Positions 18,001 to 24,000 of a stretch of DNA of 64,000 bases are shown one piece after another. The stretch is taken from assembly GCA_964387845.1 (NCBI GenBank), contig CAYLXA010000006.1:32001-96000 (forward strand), read 5' to 3'. How positions within the stretch are numbered: the stretch's first letter is position 1; every line of letters begins with the position of its first letter. The position numbers were made by a program. The stretch is from an uncultured bacterium. Its GTDB lineage: Bacteria > Omnitrophota > Omnitrophia > Omnitrophales > Abzuiibacteriaceae.

Positions 18001-21000
18001 TCAACGACCGATCCGAATTTTTCAAGCAATGCAGAAGCGCCCACGATGAGTTGGAGTTCAAGAGCAGGGTGCGCCTGAACCGCGCGTAAGACAGTCTTGA
18101 TTCTGGCGTAGCTAGCCCGGTTGGTGACGACAATCGCAATTTTTCTTTTTTGCTTCCTTTTTTTCATGATCGTGTTTCTGAAACCGGCGCAGGCTCTCGA
18201 GTTTGATTTAAGTGAAAAGTATTTTTAATCTCAGCAAGTAAAGCTCTGGTAACATCCTTAACATTTTCCCAAGTGACCACATAAGGAACCGCGTAGGGCT
18301 GGCGCCGTGTTCCGGGGTGGCTGCCTTTGAAAAGAGCTGTGATGTATTTTAATAAATTTTCGCGGTTGGGGCGAAAATTTTTTAGAAGCTTTTGAATAAC
18401 GGAGGGCAGGTCTTTGATGTTTTCTAGATAAAAGGCGTTGTCATAATTTTTGTAAAAAGTGTCGCCAAGCACAACCAATGGCTTTTCAAGCAAGATAGCT
18501 TCCATCCCGATTGTATTGGATATGGAAACAATTAAAGAAGCGTTCTTCACTATATCAAAGCTTGGCAGCTGAGTATCTAAAAGTCTCACATTGTAAATGG
18601 AGCGCAGCCGGCGATATTCGGAAAGCGGTCTTCGGCCCAGAAAAATCGGATGGTCCTTAACGTAAAGTCTGTAGCCGGCCGGCAAACTTTTGCTGATATT
18701 TTCGATCACGGCGAGCTGATCGCAATAAAAGGGAGCCAAAATGAGCGTTGAGCGTTCGGGCTGTACTTGGAGCGGGTAAAAAATGTATTTTTCACCGGCA
18801 ACCGGTTTTTCGAAAAGATTGAGCGCTTTTCCCAGGTGGTGGCGGAACACGCGCGAAATTCTTGAGCGCACCAAATCCAAAAATTTCATCCGGCTGATAT
18901 CCAGTGGATCCGTAAAGTTATCCCAGCTGAAAGTAAATAAATTAATCAGTGCTTTAAAGCTGAAGTTGGGAACCTTGCTCCGTGTTTTTAAATAAAGCAG
19001 AGGTTCGTAATGATTGGTGTATTCGTGCAAGAAGGATTCGGCATGCTTTCTTTCATCGGTTGTTAATTCACGCGTCTTCAATTCCCGATAGGCAAGCTCG
19101 ACCGGTTCGCGTGAATCAAGGCAATCGTCATAAATCGAAAGGCGATGATTCAATTTTAAACTTCCCAGGGACCAAACGGGCACGCCTCGCTTTTTACCGA
19201 TTTTATAAATTAAATAGCTTAGCATGCAGCAAACGTCGTCCATGATAATCAAATCCGGCTGCTGCCGCTCAAGCGCCTCCTCCACAAAATGGATGCAAAG
19301 CTCCAGTGCACGCATGGCTTTATCATATGGCAGCTTTGAAATGTAACGGTCTGAAGAAATGTAAAAGGGTAGATTGGGGATGCCCAGTTCTTTTTCTTTT
19401 TGTTCTAAGAAGGAGAGGTCGTAGGGCGCCGACCAGTTTTTGGAGCGCAAATAATCCGTAAAAATACAGATTTCGTTCCAGGTCTTGTCTTGCTCGAGAA
19501 GTCTCTTGGCACTGATTTGTCCGTAAGAAATTCCTGAAAATTTTACAGATGGGATATCTTGACGCAGAAGTACGCTGATCCGCTGAAAGAAAATCTCATA
19601 AATTGATAAAAAGAAAGTAATTTTCATTAAATTGTCTAAAAGACCGCCCTTTAACTGGAAGGAAAGGAGTATAAACACAAAGATAAAACGCGTCAACTTC
19701 TATGATGGCAAACGCTTGCCTTGAAAAGATGCATTGATAATCAAAGGGGGATCGGGTAAAATTCTCTCTTTGAAAGGCAGAAGAAATGTCTCAATTAGAA
19801 GAAAAGCTTAGCTCTACAGACGAACAGAAAAAATCCGGATTACGCCGCGGTTTTAAAGCAGTTATTGAGAGACTTAGCCCCGCGCTTCTTTGGCAATTAC
19901 GGCGCTGGACCTATCTCAAGAATCCCAGAGAATTTTGGGCGCGTGTCGGTCAGGACAAAGGTTATGAGAACCCAGGCCCTGAAGTTACCCGGATTCAGGG
20001 TAAATTTATTGCTGATAAGATCAAGCCTTTAGCTCCGCGGTCTGTGCTCGAGATTGGCTGTGGCTGGGGCCGTATTTTGGGAGTTGTTCGTGAAGAGTTG
20101 GGCGCGGATGTAAAAGTGGTAGGTCTTGATTTTGGGCACCCGCAAATCACAACGGCAAAGAGCCGGCTTGGCAATTCATGCGGATTTGTGGAAGGCAATG
20201 CAGCCAAACTGCCTTTCAAGGACAATAGTTTTGACGTGGTTTATACGATGGGCGTTTTTATGCATATCCCGCCGGAATTTATTGAATCTGCTTATAGCGA
20301 AGCTGTTCGTGTCAGCCGGAAATACATTGTGCATGGCGAAGACTTAAGCGGAGCCTATCATCGTTTTCGCTATGACCACGAAAAAGAATACCGAAGCCGC
20401 GGATTTGGCATTCAAACCTGTGAAGCACCTAAGCTTCTTCACGTAGACCCAAAAAAGATCCCGCAATTTTTAATCGTACAAAAAAAATCTGTTTAGAATT
20501 AAACAGATTTTTTCTTGGCCGCAATTCTTAAAACTTTTTCCAGCCATTCGGATAGAAATTTCTGATCCAAAGAACTCTCAAGATTCAGTTTAGTCGTGGC
20601 AATGTCTTTGCTTGCGGAGGGGTCGACTTTAATGCGCTCGTGCAGCCTTCTGACCAAGGCTTGCGCAAAACAAAACTGTAGAAGCAGCAAAAGATGTTTT
20701 TTTGTTTCTTGATTCCATGTGCATTTAAAATATGAAATGTAAGCACCAAACCAATCGGTGACCCAATCGGCTTCGAATATTTTCTGAACCGGGTTTTTGC
20801 ATGCTATATGGACTAAGTCATATAGAAAAAATTCGTGCTTTCGGACACCCTCGAAGTCCAGTATGAAAATTTCTGAATCCTGAACTCCGCCAAATGATAA
20901 ATTTCCGCCAGAGATAATATCGCCGTGCACTGCAGTTCTTAGATTGGCGGCGTTTATGAATTTTGTTTTAAAGTATGTGCCCGCGATCTTGAGAACGGCT

Positions 21001-24000
21001 TTGAATGAAATTGTCTTTTCCAGGCATAGCAACAGCAGGCGCTTTGCGAAATCCAAACCAAAGAAAAATCGATCAAAGCGCTCAATCCATGTGACTGGCT
21101 CTTGATTAACTCGAGCTTGAAATTCAAACAATGCATCCAAAATTAATTTTTGAGATCCGGCTGAAAGGTTGGAAATATTTTCACGGTTGCCGATCGGATG
21201 CAGCTTCTCGTAGAGGGTGGTGTACTTGAAAAAAGAGTCAGACTGGATTCTGAGAACGCGAAACGTATTTGGTTTTGGATTTTGCAATGCTTTGAGGGTG
21301 TTTTTGTCTTTCAAAAATTGAAAAATATTTTTAGGACTTAAATTTCGTATTTTTTTAACCACAACAGTTCCGGCGTCCGATGTTTTTAAGGAGACATTGC
21401 CCCGCGATGTCCATGCTTTGTCCCACTGTTTGACGCTGAATGCTACTAAAATTCTTTCGCTAAGCATGTTAAAAGGAGCGATCAGCATGAGTCGTTCCAG
21501 GTGTGGTCTTGTTTTGGGAAACCACTTCATTAAGCTTCGGAATCCCGGACACCACGTGCCGCTTACCGCTTGAACTTCCAGAAAAGGGAATTGCAATTTC
21601 CATGCGAACGGGACCGTTTTTCTTGAAAGATAATCTTTTTCTGTGAAAGTCTTAAAAATAGTCCTGAAAAAAGTGCGTAAATTCAAAAAATAAGATGCGT
21701 TGATAAATTCTATAATGATAATGCCGTCAGCTTTTACAACCCTGGAAAATTCTTTAAGGCAAATTCTTTTTAATCGCAATGGGATCAAATGAAAGAATCG
21801 ACAGGATAGAACAATATCAAATGCCTGTTTTTGAAAGGGTAAATGCTCGGCGTCACCCTGAATTAAAGGCAATGGCGCTGACAAATTTGCTTTTGCTTGC
21901 ATGAGCATCTCATAAGCATAATCAAGTCCAATTATTTTCTGTGCACGGCTTTGAAGGAGATTTAGATTTCTGCCCGTACCGGTCGCAATGTCCAAAATCT
22001 TCTGTTTTGACAAGTCTGTGTAACCAAGAGATTCCAGAAGTCGAAGCGTCATCCGATTAGTTTGTTCAAGATCAAACAAACCCTTTTCATCACTGTAGCG
22101 TGCTTGGTGGTAAGAAGCCGCAATCATTTCATATTTTTCTTTTAGGTGCTTCTTACGGCTCTGCGGAGTTATTTCGGGTATCATAATTTGCGCGCTTTTA
22201 GATTGGTAAATTGAGGGGAGTGGTGTATTAAAAAATTCCGAAGAATGGCCGCGACAGCTCGATGGCCATTGCGTGTCAGGTGTCCGTCTTTTTGGTAGTA
22301 AAGAGTCTGCGTGTCAGGAAGTTTCTTCATTTCTGGTGTTAAATCCAGAAAAGGAATCTTTAGTTCGTGAAGCCACGCCGCTACCGTTCGGTTCGGCTGT
22401 CCCAAATCATACAAAAGATCAAAGTTTGCAATTTGATTTGCAAGTTCAGCTTGGTCATCAGATTGCACCATGGTTTTATACGGGATCAAAACAACAAGAA
22501 GGGGGGTATTGATTTTCTTGGTTTCTTCTACTAATTCTGCCGTCAGAGTTTTAGAATATTCGTAATCTCTTTGAGCTGTTGGCGATAAATTTTTTGCTGT
22601 TAGTGCCAAATATTCATCCGGCAGTTTCCATTTTTGATTGACCCGGCGAAAAAATAGACGATGTCTCAGTATTTTTAGCAATGTAACGATTTTAATATCA
22701 CGGTGGCTTCTTACCGTCGGGCGATCAGACGAGGCGATGTTGCCATTTTTTCTTTCCCAGCGCCAGTTACCAACCAAGTCATTGCCCAGGTAAAGCATGT
22801 AAATAATAAGATCCGGCGAGTATTTCTTTCCGTAATGTTTTAGCCATTGCACTTGATGAATTAAATCAAACCCGCCTGATGCCGTGTTTAGAATTTCAGT
22901 GCCCAATTGCCGTTCAAGCAAATCTGCGAATATGAACGGGCGATCGACGCCGTAACCAAAGGTGAATGAATCGCCGAGAAGGACGATGCGCGGCCCTTGT
23001 TTTATTTGAATCGGATCATCGCGGAACCCGTCTTCGTTTGTCGTAATGGACACATCGTATTCGCTTGATACCATGCGTTGATCGAGTTTAGGCGCGTAAT
23101 GAAACCCGGTGTGGGGATCTGATTCCCACGGGGACCAGCTCTTTTTTGGATAATTAATGAATTGAAGGCCCGCTTCGGACAATAAAAGCACAATCAAGAT
23201 AGAAGCGAAGAGTAATAGTATTTTCTTAAGAATATCCATCCGCTTTATGGGAGTTTTTTCATTCGAAATATGGTATGCTAGCGCAATTTAAGGGGTTATT
23301 TTATCATGCGCTGTTTCGTTTGTAATCAATTAAGAAAATATGATCTATCCGGAACATAAAACAGCTGCTGTTGTTTTTTCGATTGATGATATTCATCCTG
23401 CGTCTTCCATAAATGGTTACGAAGCGGGCGGTGATCTTGCGAAGGGTGTTTTGGGCCGGCTTCGGCAGCTTACTGTCGAGCATTCCGATTTTTGTGCCAC
23501 CTTGTTTGTTACCGCCGATTGGCGCGCGAAATCACCTTACCCGAATCTGCAAAACCGCATTTTAAACTACATTCCAGGAATGGGCGCGCACTTCGGCGCT
23601 CTTCCGCAATGGCCGGAAGGCTTTATGAGTCTTGATCGGCACCCTGATTTTGTTTCTTATCTTGACACTATTCCCCGGATCGAAATTGGCAGCCACGGCC
23701 TTACGCATGTGGGGTTGGGAAAAAATTTGATACGGGAATTTTTAGGGCTTTCTGAAAATGAAATTAGAAAACGTGTGAGTAAAATCGCCCAGATTTTTCA
23801 AAATGCGGGCTTGAAGAAACCTGCAGGTTTTTGTCCGCCGGGCTGGGGTTATAATGAGTTGTTATTGAAAGTAATTCCAGATTTCGGATATTCTTATATT
23901 GCCTGTTCGCGCGATTTAAACACGCCGATTAAAAGAGATGCTGTTTGTAATGAAAGTGGCATCAAAAACGTTTCTCTTGTGAACCCATGTTTTTTACCGG

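What the first reader, a model, noticed from the sequence alone, without database searches (positions are those of the whole stretch)
20499..22184. SAM-methyltransferase fused to an APH/choline-kinase-like phosphotransferase domain inside the polysaccharide locus
The N-terminal third of this protein has a clear class I methyltransferase motif I (ILDIATGTGRNL). The C-terminal half carries the catalytic loop HGDIISGGN (HxDxxxxN) and a DFE-type Asp (ILDFEG), which characterise aminoglycoside/choline/sugar kinases of the protein-kinase-like fold. A fused kinase plus methyltransferase in an EPS locus suggests a two-step substituent on the glycan. One possibility is a methyl-phosphate or phospho-amino-alcohol decoration (choline- or ethanolamine-phosphate-like). 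Another is phosphorylation of a sugar that is then methylated. This is an uncommon domain combination.
Basis: partly seen in the sequence, partly recalled or inferred. Interest (0 to 1): 0.6.

Follow-up and report, generated by a model that had tools for sequence, protein, structure and literature searches.

The report
Methyltransferase–sugar kinase fusion in glycan locus
This gene from an uncultured Omnitrophota bacterium encodes one protein that joins a methyl-adding enzyme to a hidden small-molecule kinase; it most likely decorates a sialic-acid-like surface polysaccharide with a phosphate and a methyl group, which is a rare, independently evolved version of an enzyme design already known from E. 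coli and Klebsiella O-antigens.

Summary

The protein is soluble and shares an operon with an SGNH/AlgX-like gene. Where enough flanking sequence is available it lies beside a KpsC-like ulosonic-acid transferase and NeuC/NeuB/CMP-synthetase genes, in a Wzx/Wzy locus.

The methyltransferase-then-kinase order is not unprecedented. WbdD (E. coli O9a) and ORF6 (Klebsiella O7) are proven methyl-phosphate installers. This protein shows no detectable homology to either beyond the generic SAM core. It also lacks their coiled-coil ruler and ABC-transporter context. Fewer than 10 relatives were found among billions of proteins.

Best reading: a third, independent methyltransferase-kinase fusion that phosphorylates and methylates a glycan sugar, possibly giving methyl phosphate. 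The chemistry is inferred. Novelty: new variant of a known kind.

The parts
20499..22184 (-). Whole ORF, 561 aa plus stop: bifunctional methyltransferase / kinase-like protein (P0001). Soluble, with no predicted membrane segment.
21432..22184 (-). N-terminal class I SAM-dependent methyltransferase domain, residues 1-251. The Pfam core is residues 59-180 (window 21645-22010).
   Evidence: Pfam Methyltransf_11/25/31; PDB methyltransferase hits; strand/helix pattern in the full-length model
21963..21998 (-). SAM-binding motif I, ILDIATGTGRNL (residues 63-74). It is UbiE-like (AxGxG). D65, G69 and G71 are invariant in the five close homologues.
21786..21800 (-). Invariant R129-F-F-H132-L after strand 4 of the methyltransferase. 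H132 aligns with WbdD His132, which is essential in the phosphate-binding site of that phosphate methyltransferase.
   Evidence: PMC3482155. Suggestive only.
20502..21431 (-). C-terminal APH/choline-kinase-fold kinase-like domain, residues 252-561.
21354..21356 (-). Lys277, the putative ATP-binding lysine of strand 3 (VVVKK). Conserved in all 8 members that have an N-lobe.
20901..20927 (-). Catalytic loop HGDIISGGN (H420, D422 as catalytic base, N428 as metal ligand), with a one-residue insertion relative to canonical HxDxxxxN.
20850..20858 (-). D443-F-E, the equivalent of the DFG metal-binding Asp. It is followed by the FLYD456 motif (D456 at 20817-20819), which is typical of APH/choline kinases.
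22181..23239 (-). Upstream SGNH/AlgX-like protein with an N-terminal signal anchor. Its stop codon overlaps the fusion gene's ATG (ATGA), so the two share an operon. It is found immediately upstream of every catalytically intact fusion examined.
19786..20496 (+). Convergent second class I methyltransferase (236 aa). Present in some homologous loci only.
18164..19696 (-). KpsC/KpsS-like (Pfam Capsule_synth) putative CMP-ulosonic-acid transferase. It is the most consistently co-located partner of the kinase-like domain.
   Evidence: Pfam; KpsC 6mgd E 1.4e-5; BFO_1060 family, weak; homologues in L008 (E 4e-30) and L090 (62% identity)
15332..18167 (-). Nonulosonic-acid biosynthesis genes: NeuC (16998-18167), NeuB-like (16024-16992) and CMP-NulO synthetase (15332-16081).
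9393..12124 (-). Wzx flippase (9393-10718) and Wzy-like polymerase (10748-12124). The locus is Wzx/Wzy-dependent, and no ABC exporter was found.

Best explanation
The gene encodes a soluble cytoplasmic enzyme with two active sites that decorates the sialic-acid-like (nonulosonic-acid-containing) polysaccharide made by this Wzx/Wzy locus. The C-terminal APH-fold kinase uses ATP to phosphorylate a sugar hydroxyl on the lipid-linked repeat unit. The most plausible target is on or next to the ulosonic-acid residue added by the neighbouring KpsC-like transferase. The N-terminal SAM methyltransferase then adds a methyl group. By analogy with the only two characterised methyltransferase-kinase fusions, it most likely methylates the new phosphate, giving a methyl-phosphate substituent. 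The protein has no coiled-coil ruler, and the locus uses Wzx/Wzy rather than an ABC exporter. So the group would be a side decoration on each repeat unit and not a chain-length terminator. Shown here: the domain identities, intact and conserved catalytic residues, the operon and the conserved synteny. Inferred: the substrate, the order of reactions and the methyl-phosphate product.
Against: There is no biochemical evidence at all. No detectable homology to WbdD or ORF6-O7-N exists beyond the generic SAM core (hhalign probability 68%, 12% and 0.1%), so function is transferred by architecture alone. No sequence signature of phosphate methyltransferases is known: ORF6-O7 has E-Y where WbdD has H-H. 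To my knowledge, methyl phosphate has been reported only as a terminal cap in ABC-transporter-dependent O-antigens, not on Wzy-dependent repeat units. The catalytic loop carries a one-residue insertion (Asp to Asn is +6) whose effect is unknown. The locus contains at least four other methyltransferases, so methylation need not be coupled to phosphorylation. The full-length model is poor (pLDDT 57.7), so the relative geometry of the two active sites is unknown.
Confidence: 0.45

Rival explanations
1. The two domains act in the same pathway but not on the same group. The kinase phosphorylates a sugar or a free precursor, for example an N-acetylhexosamine or nonulosonic-acid intermediate as N-acetylhexosamine 1-kinase does. 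The methyltransferase O- or N-methylates a different position. The product carries separate phosphate and methyl decorations, or only a methyl group.
Against: A stable fusion, and the simultaneous loss of both active sites in P0007, argue for coupled steps. The NeuC/NeuB/NeuA route needs no kinase. The standalone relative P0009 lies in a cluster without nonulosonic-acid biosynthesis genes.
Confidence: 0.25
2. Phospho-amino-alcohol route: the kinase domain is an ethanolamine/choline kinase, and the methyltransferase is a phosphoethanolamine N-methyltransferase. Together they would make phospho-(N-methyl)ethanolamine or phosphocholine for attachment to the glycan.
Against: No LicC-type cytidylyltransferase, LicD-type transferase or EptA-type transferase was found among the locus ORFs scanned. 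Choline and ethanolamine kinases do not stand out from other APH-fold enzymes in either search. The phosphoethanolamine methyltransferase hits are about 9 orders of magnitude weaker than the generic methyltransferase hits.
Confidence: 0.1
3. A true WbdD-like chain terminator: the enzyme caps the non-reducing end and so sets polymer length and licenses export.
For: It has the same domain order as WbdD and ORF6-O7. The distant relative P0009 lies next to an ABC-type transporter.
Against: There is no coiled-coil ruler: the protein ends at residue 561, with the last helices packed into the kinase C-lobe. No Wzm/Wzt exporter or carbohydrate-binding module is present. The locus has Wzx and Wzy, and in that pathway polymerisation happens in the periplasm at the reducing end (established knowledge), so a cytoplasmic cap cannot terminate it.
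Confidence: 0.05
4. The kinase-like domain is catalytically inactive and serves as a binding or scaffolding module that holds the methyltransferase at the KpsC-like transferase. Alternatively, the protein modifies a non-glycan small molecule such as an antibiotic.
For: The catalytic loop has non-canonical spacing (Asp to Asn is +6). No Pfam kinase model matches. P0007 shows the scaffold can persist without catalytic residues while staying next to a KpsC-like gene. Many structural neighbours are antibiotic kinases.
Against: The full catalytic residue set (Lys, alpha-C acid, His/Asp/Asn, DFE Asp) is invariant across the six intact fusions and present in the standalone relatives. The gene has been seen only inside glycan loci.
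Confidence: 0.1

Closest known systems
WbdD of E. coli O9a / Klebsiella pneumoniae O3 (bifunctional kinase-methyltransferase O-antigen terminator; structure paper PMC3482155)
   Same: An N-terminal class I SAM methyltransferase is followed directly by a protein-kinase-like domain in one cytoplasmic polypeptide encoded in a glycan locus. Its chemistry, sugar-OH to sugar-O-phosphate to sugar-O-P-O-CH3, is the best model for what this protein does. WbdD His132 aligns with the invariant His132 here.
ORF6(O7)-N of Klebsiella pneumoniae O7 (methyltransferase plus cryptic AmiN-like kinase terminator; PMC11231755)
   Different: Profile-profile comparison finds no significant relationship: kinase probability 0.1%, methyltransferase 12%. 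The ORF6-type family is very large (at least 4,696 clusters) and always carries a coiled coil (per the paper), often fused to GT2 polymerase modules in ABC-transporter pathways. This family has fewer than 10 members, no coiled coil, an extra residue in the catalytic loop and a HGD motif.
APH / choline kinase / N-acetylhexosamine 1-kinase superfamily (Pfam PF01636 clan; eukaryotic-like small-molecule kinases)
   Same: Bilobal fold, strand-3 Lys, HxD...N catalytic loop, D(F/W)(E/G) metal-binding Asp and the downstream hydrophobic-Y-D motif.
   Different: It falls below every Pfam and PDB sequence threshold. It has a one-residue insertion in the catalytic loop and is fused to a methyltransferase.
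KdkA / WaaP (Kdo and heptose kinases of LPS core)
   Same: These are protein-kinase-like enzymes that phosphorylate a sugar after a CMP-ulosonic-acid or heptosyl transferase has added it. KdkA works after the Kdo transferase WaaA (own knowledge), which parallels the pairing seen here between a KpsC-like transferase and the kinase domain.

Membership tests
Class I SAM-dependent methyltransferase (Pfam Methyltransf_11/25) | Profile match above the curated gathering score | tested here: met
   Methyltransf_11 scores 67.7 bits against a cut-off of 21.2; Methyltransf_25 scores 64.4 against 27.
Class I SAM-dependent methyltransferase (Pfam Methyltransf_11/25) | Glycine-rich SAM-binding motif I and an acidic residue at the end of strand 2 | tested here: met
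   ILDIATGTG at residues 63-71 and GLD88 are both invariant in the five close homologues.
APH / choline-kinase-type protein-kinase-like fold | Bilobal kinase fold | tested here: met
APH / choline-kinase-type protein-kinase-like fold | Catalytic residues: strand-3 Lys, catalytic Asp, metal-binding Asn and Asp | tested here: met
   K277, D422, N428 and D443 are conserved in all members except the degenerate P0007.
APH / choline-kinase-type protein-kinase-like fold | Canonical Brenner motif spacing HxDxxxxN | tested here: not met
   The fused members have HGDxxSGGN, with Asn at +6. The standalone relatives P0008 and P0009 have the canonical +5.
APH / choline-kinase-type protein-kinase-like fold | Match to Pfam PF01636 or another kinase model by sequence | tested here: not met
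   No family matched even at E<=10. Only P0008 and P0009 give sub-threshold APH hits, about 18 bits against a cut-off of 23.2. Profile searches of PDB sequences found nothing.
APH / choline-kinase-type protein-kinase-like fold | ATP-dependent phosphotransfer | not testable with these tools
   Needs an enzyme assay.
WbdD family (O9a/O3 terminator) | Methyltransferase followed by kinase in one polypeptide | tested here: met
WbdD family (O9a/O3 terminator) | Sequence homology across both domains | tested here: not met
   BLASTP best E is 0.098. hhalign aligns only 77 methyltransferase-core columns at probability 68%, with nothing in the kinase.
WbdD family (O9a/O3 terminator) | C-terminal coiled-coil molecular ruler | tested here: not met
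   The protein ends at residue 561, and the last three helices (29, 15 and 20 residues) belong to the kinase C-lobe in the model.
WbdD family (O9a/O3 terminator) | ABC-transporter (Wzm/Wzt) pathway context | tested here: not met
   The locus has Wzx and Wzy, and no ABC exporter appears among the ORFs scanned.
WbdD family (O9a/O3 terminator) | Methyl-phosphate product | not testable with these tools
   Needs MS/NMR of reaction products.
ORF6(O7)-N family (Klebsiella O7 terminator) | Profile-level homology to the family | tested here: not met
   hhalign of A3 against A4 gives probability 0.1%; A1 against A4 gives 12%, generic methyltransferase core only.
ORF6(O7)-N family (Klebsiella O7 terminator) | Cryptic APH-like (AmiN-like) kinase after the methyltransferase | tested here: met
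Choline/ethanolamine kinase plus phosphoethanolamine N-methyltransferase pathway | Accompanying LicC-type cytidylyltransferase and LicD/EptA-type transferase | tested here: not met
   None was found among the 30 locus ORFs scanned with Pfam. The rest of the genome is unknown.

The most novel reading that the evidence does not exclude
This is a third, independently evolved methyltransferase-kinase fusion, after WbdD and ORF6-O7. It installs methyl phosphate, or a phospho plus methyl pair, on or next to a nonulosonic-acid residue of every repeat unit of a Wzx/Wzy-dependent polysaccharide in Omnitrophota. That would take methyl-phosphate glycan chemistry out of its only known role as an ABC-pathway chain cap and would give the first kinase known to act on a sialic-acid-like residue within a bacterial glycan.
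Probability: 0.25. Interest if true: 0.6.

Novelty: new variant of a known kind. Interest (0 to 1): 0.42.

Why it matters
Methyltransferase-kinase fusions are the only enzymes known to put methyl phosphate on bacterial glycans, and so far they are understood purely as chain-length terminators of ABC-transporter-dependent O-antigens. A sequence-unrelated fusion with the same domain order but no ruler, in a Wzx/Wzy locus with sialic-acid-like biosynthesis in an uncultured phylum, would have two implications. The design would have arisen at least three times. The chemistry might also be used as an ordinary repeat-unit decoration. There is a practical lesson too: kinase domains in glycan loci are often invisible to Pfam, and such proteins are annotated simply as 'SAM-dependent methyltransferase'. 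That holds here, in the ORF6-O7 family of at least 4,696 clusters, and in the RefSeq label for WbdD itself (though Pfam does detect the WbdD kinase).

Tried and rejected
- Pfam and NCBIfam on the whole protein and on the C-terminal 310 aa alone: methyltransferase only, nothing for the kinase even at E<=10.
- Profile searches of PDB sequences with 5- and 9-sequence alignments of the C-terminal domain: no hits at E<=10.
- Full-length AlphaFold model from five sequences: too poor to use (pLDDT 57.7). It was not used for fold searching or for inter-domain geometry.
- Homologue searches: 5 full-length relatives among 5.8 billion clusters; 7 hits among 1.84 billion representatives, one of them spurious (P0010, a PARP/ankyrin protein). 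The broader-profile search added nothing new.
The JGI metagenome scan returned only two contigs already known.
- Cluster look-up gave no names or accessions. The Rfam scan of the window was empty. The AFDB50 fold library was unavailable.
- WbdD orthology: rejected by BLASTP and hhalign.
- ORF6-O7-N homology: rejected by hhalign, after I recovered that family by seeding a search with the OCR text of the paper's supplementary alignment.
- Rosetta-stone test: the separate methyltransferase next to standalone P0009 is only generically similar to the N-terminal domain (E 2e-4), so a clean fission/fusion relationship is not shown.
- The gene downstream of P0006 is not KpsC-like.
- Chain-terminator role: rejected because there is no coiled coil or ABC exporter.
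- Phosphocholine route: judged unlikely because no LicC/LicD genes are present.
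Full report
**1. The observation**

Window 20499-22184 holds a single 561-aa ORF on the minus strand.
- ILDIATGTGRNL at residues 63-74
- HGDIISGGN at residues 420-428
- ILDFEG at residues 441-446

The strict pattern HGD..N..DFE occurs once in all six reading frames of the window. A looser version occurs twice, against a mean of 0.03 in 100 shuffled windows.

One correction is needed. 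In this protein the Asn lies six residues after the catalytic Asp (HxDxxxxxN), not five as in the canonical Brenner motif. The distant standalone relatives P0008 and P0009 have the canonical spacing.

**2. N-terminal domain**

Pfam places Methyltransf_11 (E 1.4e-18), Methyltransf_25 and Methyltransf_31 on residues 59-180, all above their gathering scores. NCBIfam gives only sub-threshold matches to BioC, UbiE and similar models. A profile search of PDB sequences returns 47 generic class I methyltransferases.

The family-specific extension to about residue 251 is strongly conserved. In the full-length model it supplies the last two strands of the Rossmann sheet plus helical inserts.

**3. C-terminal domain**

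No sequence method recognises it:
- Pfam finds nothing even at E<=10, for the whole protein or the isolated 310 residues.
- HMM profiles of the domain find nothing among PDB sequences.

The family is extremely small:
- 5 full-length proteins among 5.8 billion clusters
- 7 hits, one spurious, among 1.84 billion representatives scored exhaustively
- no locus in 185,579 GTDB species genomes
- only two already-known contigs among 241 million JGI metagenome records

A five-sequence full-length AlphaFold model was poor (pLDDT 57.7). The domain alone, modelled with a nine-sequence alignment (A3), gave pLDDT 83.5 and pTM 0.83. Its topology is that of a kinase: a five-stranded N-lobe with one helix, and a helical C-lobe with two short strands around the catalytic loop.

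Fold searches agree with each other:
- Foldseek against the PDB gave 103 hits at E<=1e-3. The top 50 listed are all aminoglycoside or macrolide phosphotransferases, choline/ethanolamine kinases, methylthioribose kinase or N-acetylhexosamine 1-kinase.

There is also indirect sequence support. P0008 and P0009 give sub-threshold Pfam APH and RIO1 hits exactly on the catalytic-loop region.

The residues that define an active kinase of this fold are conserved from 100% down to about 18% identity: K277, D293 (Glu in P0009), H420, D422, N428, D443 and D456. The one exception is P0007, which carries D422N, N428S and D443N together and has also lost the glycines of SAM motif I.

**4. Context**

The window comes from an uncultured Candidatus Omnitrophota bacterium. 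Its RND permease is 68-75% identical to those of groundwater Omnitrophota MAGs.

The gene lies in a polysaccharide locus of about 30 kb. The scanned ORFs include:
- Wzx (9393-10718) and Wzy (10748-12124)
- GT4 glycosyltransferases
- a sulfotransferase, deacetylase-like proteins, GNATs and SGNH proteins
- several methyltransferases and a radical-SAM/SPASM protein
- no ABC exporter

Immediately around the gene:
- An upstream SGNH/AlgX-like gene has a stop codon that overlaps the fusion's ATG (ATGA). It carries a signal anchor.
- A convergent 236-aa methyltransferase follows.
- Next is a 510-aa Capsule_synth protein. Its best solved relative is the beta-Kdo transferase KpsC (E 1.4e-5). It also weakly resembles the Tannerella BFO_1060 family of pseudaminic/legionaminic-acid transferases (PMC5420450).
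- Then come NeuC (above the NCBIfam cut-off), a NeuB-like synthase and a CMP-nonulosonic-acid synthetase.

This neighbourhood recurs in the homologues' loci:
- The SGNH gene is directly upstream of every catalytically intact fusion examined (P0001, P0002, P0003, P0004, P0006).
- A KpsC-like gene lies within two genes in 5 of the 7 family loci examined (those of P0001, P0002, P0004, P0007 and P0009). None was seen in the 13.8 kb held around P0006, and the P0003 contig is too short to tell.
- The standalone kinase P0009 sits in a cluster with an ABC-type transporter, a separate methyltransferase and a KpsC-like protein. That KpsC-like protein is homologous to the one in this window (E 4e-30).
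- The methyltransferases at those two loci are only generically similar (E 2e-4).
- In the P0007 locus the KpsC-like gene is 62% identical to the one here, while the adjacent fusion has decayed. The fusion is therefore accessory to the transferase, as a decorating enzyme would be.

The fusion protein has no hydrophobic segment, so it is cytoplasmic.

**5. Mechanism**

Shown:
- two intact, conserved active sites in one soluble polypeptide
- operon and synteny links to a nonulosonic-acid glycan pathway

Inferred:
- The kinase phosphorylates a sugar hydroxyl of the lipid-linked repeat unit on the cytoplasmic face.
- The target is plausibly on or near the ulosonic residue added by the KpsC-like enzyme. 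This parallels Kdo transferase followed by Kdo kinase in LPS core (own knowledge).
- The methyltransferase then methylates, most likely on the phosphate.

The reason for preferring methyl phosphate is precedent:
- WbdD of E. coli O9a has a methyltransferase at 1-210, a kinase at 211-459 and then a coiled coil. It phosphorylates the terminal mannose and methylates the phosphate (PMC3482155).

Two further points give weak support. Both active sites are lost together in P0007. WbdD's essential His132 aligns with the invariant His132 here, with invariant Arg129 nearby. However, ORF6-O7 has Glu-Tyr at that position, so no reliable signature for phosphate methylation exists.

I put about 0.85 on 'a glycan-decorating bifunctional methyltransferase/kinase' and about 0.45 on the specific kinase-then-phosphate-methylation chemistry.

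**6. Comparison and membership**

I retrieved WbdD from the E. coli HS O9 locus (L009:17967-20093, between wzt and wbdA). BLASTP and hhalign align only 77 columns of the SAM-binding core (probability 68%) and nothing in the kinase. Pfam does see the WbdD kinase as APH/Pkinase, and the paper reports that it is Src-like.

For ORF6-O7-N, I seeded a search with the OCR text of the paper's supplementary alignment. This recovered at least 4,696 clusters, nearly all annotated merely as SAM-dependent or UbiG-like methyltransferases. I aligned 20 of them (A4). Their conserved kinase motifs are K344, D446xxxxN451 and (I/L)D464xE466.

hhalign of this family against A4 gave probability 0.1% for the kinase and 12% for the methyltransferase.

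The protein is therefore not a member of either family. It shares their architecture and, for ORF6, the APH-type fold. It lacks their coiled-coil ruler and their ABC-transporter context.

In a Wzx/Wzy pathway, polymerisation is periplasmic and occurs at the reducing end (established knowledge). A cytoplasmic modification would therefore mark each repeat unit and could not terminate chains.

**7. Rivals**

- (a) Uncoupled phosphate and methyl decorations, or a precursor kinase (0.25).
- (b) An ethanolamine/choline-kinase plus phosphoethanolamine-methyltransferase route (0.10). The fold hits are compatible, but no LicC/LicD/EptA partners are in the locus.
- (c) A WbdD-like terminator (0.05), disfavoured by the absence of a ruler and exporter.
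- (d) An inactive scaffold or a non-glycan small-molecule kinase (0.10), disfavoured by invariant catalytic residues and exclusive glycan-locus synteny.

**8. Verdict**

The finding is real, and its domain-level reading is correct. The 'uncommon combination' claim holds only for this sequence family. The architecture is known and, in its ORF6 form, common.

The novelty is a third, apparently independent methyltransferase-kinase fusion in a new setting: Omnitrophota, Wzx/Wzy, nonulosonic acid, no ruler. It also carries an atypical catalytic-loop insertion. I rate it a new variant of a known kind, of moderate interest (0.42).

Noticed in passing
window 18164-19696 (-): The KpsC-like ORF listed from a TTG at 19696 probably starts at Met24 (ATG near 19627). 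A 62%-identical homologue (L090:8537-9964) begins at the equivalent Met.
   Followed up: partly
L090:10001-11686 (P0007): This is a degenerate copy of the fusion. The SAM motif I glycines are lost, and D422N, N428S and D443N occur together. It still sits directly downstream of a well-conserved KpsC-like gene and near NeuB/NeuA. It could be a pseudoenzyme or scaffold, or a gene in decay.
   Followed up: partly
P0011-P0130; L009:17967-20093: The Klebsiella O7 ORF6-N-type methyltransferase-kinase family has at least 4,696 clusters. They are annotated almost only as 'class I SAM-dependent methyltransferase' or as a UbiG-type quinol methylase. E. coli HS WbdD is likewise named only 'class I SAM-dependent methyltransferase' in RefSeq. 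Kinase domains in glycan terminators are systematically under-annotated.
   Followed up: partly
window 26450-29896 (+): A radical-SAM/SPASM protein, an NAD-dependent epimerase/dehydratase and a spore-photoproduct-lyase-family (PF20903) protein form a block. The block is conserved with the polysaccharide locus in the homologous contigs L001 and L002. An SPL-like radical-SAM enzyme in a glycan locus is unusual.
   Followed up: no
window 129-2969 (+): At the edge of the locus lie a pyruvate-kinase barrel-only protein (325 aa, with a weak HpcH/HpaI aldolase hit), an unannotated 314-aa ORF and a Sulfotransfer_1 protein. This suggests sulfation and perhaps a PEP-derived substituent on the same glycan.
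   Followed up: no
window 13470-15339 (+): A DltD-like protein (weak hit) and a PhyH-family dioxygenase sit next to the CMP-nonulosonic-acid synthetase gene, and the pair is conserved in L005 and L090. In L005 an MBOAT protein is adjacent, suggesting a periplasmic O-acylation system. The dioxygenase could hydroxylate the nonulosonic acid or an acyl group.
   Followed up: no
L005:5149-7101 and L092:720-2690: In two homologous loci an AsnB-like glutamine amidotransferase (about 650 aa) lies immediately upstream of the SGNH-fusion gene pair. This hints at amidation of a uronic or ulosonic carboxylate in those glycans. It is absent from this window.
   Followed up: no
window 41886-43712 (+): A NodU-like carbamoyltransferase (E 1e-42, below the equivalog cut-off) lies outside the main locus, downstream of two GAF histidine kinases (36152-40688).
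   Followed up: no
window 47471-57199 (+): A TolC-like protein, an RND adaptor and two tandem RND permeases (MdtB/MdtC-like arrangement). I used these only as a taxonomic marker; they place the window in Candidatus Omnitrophota.
   Followed up: partly
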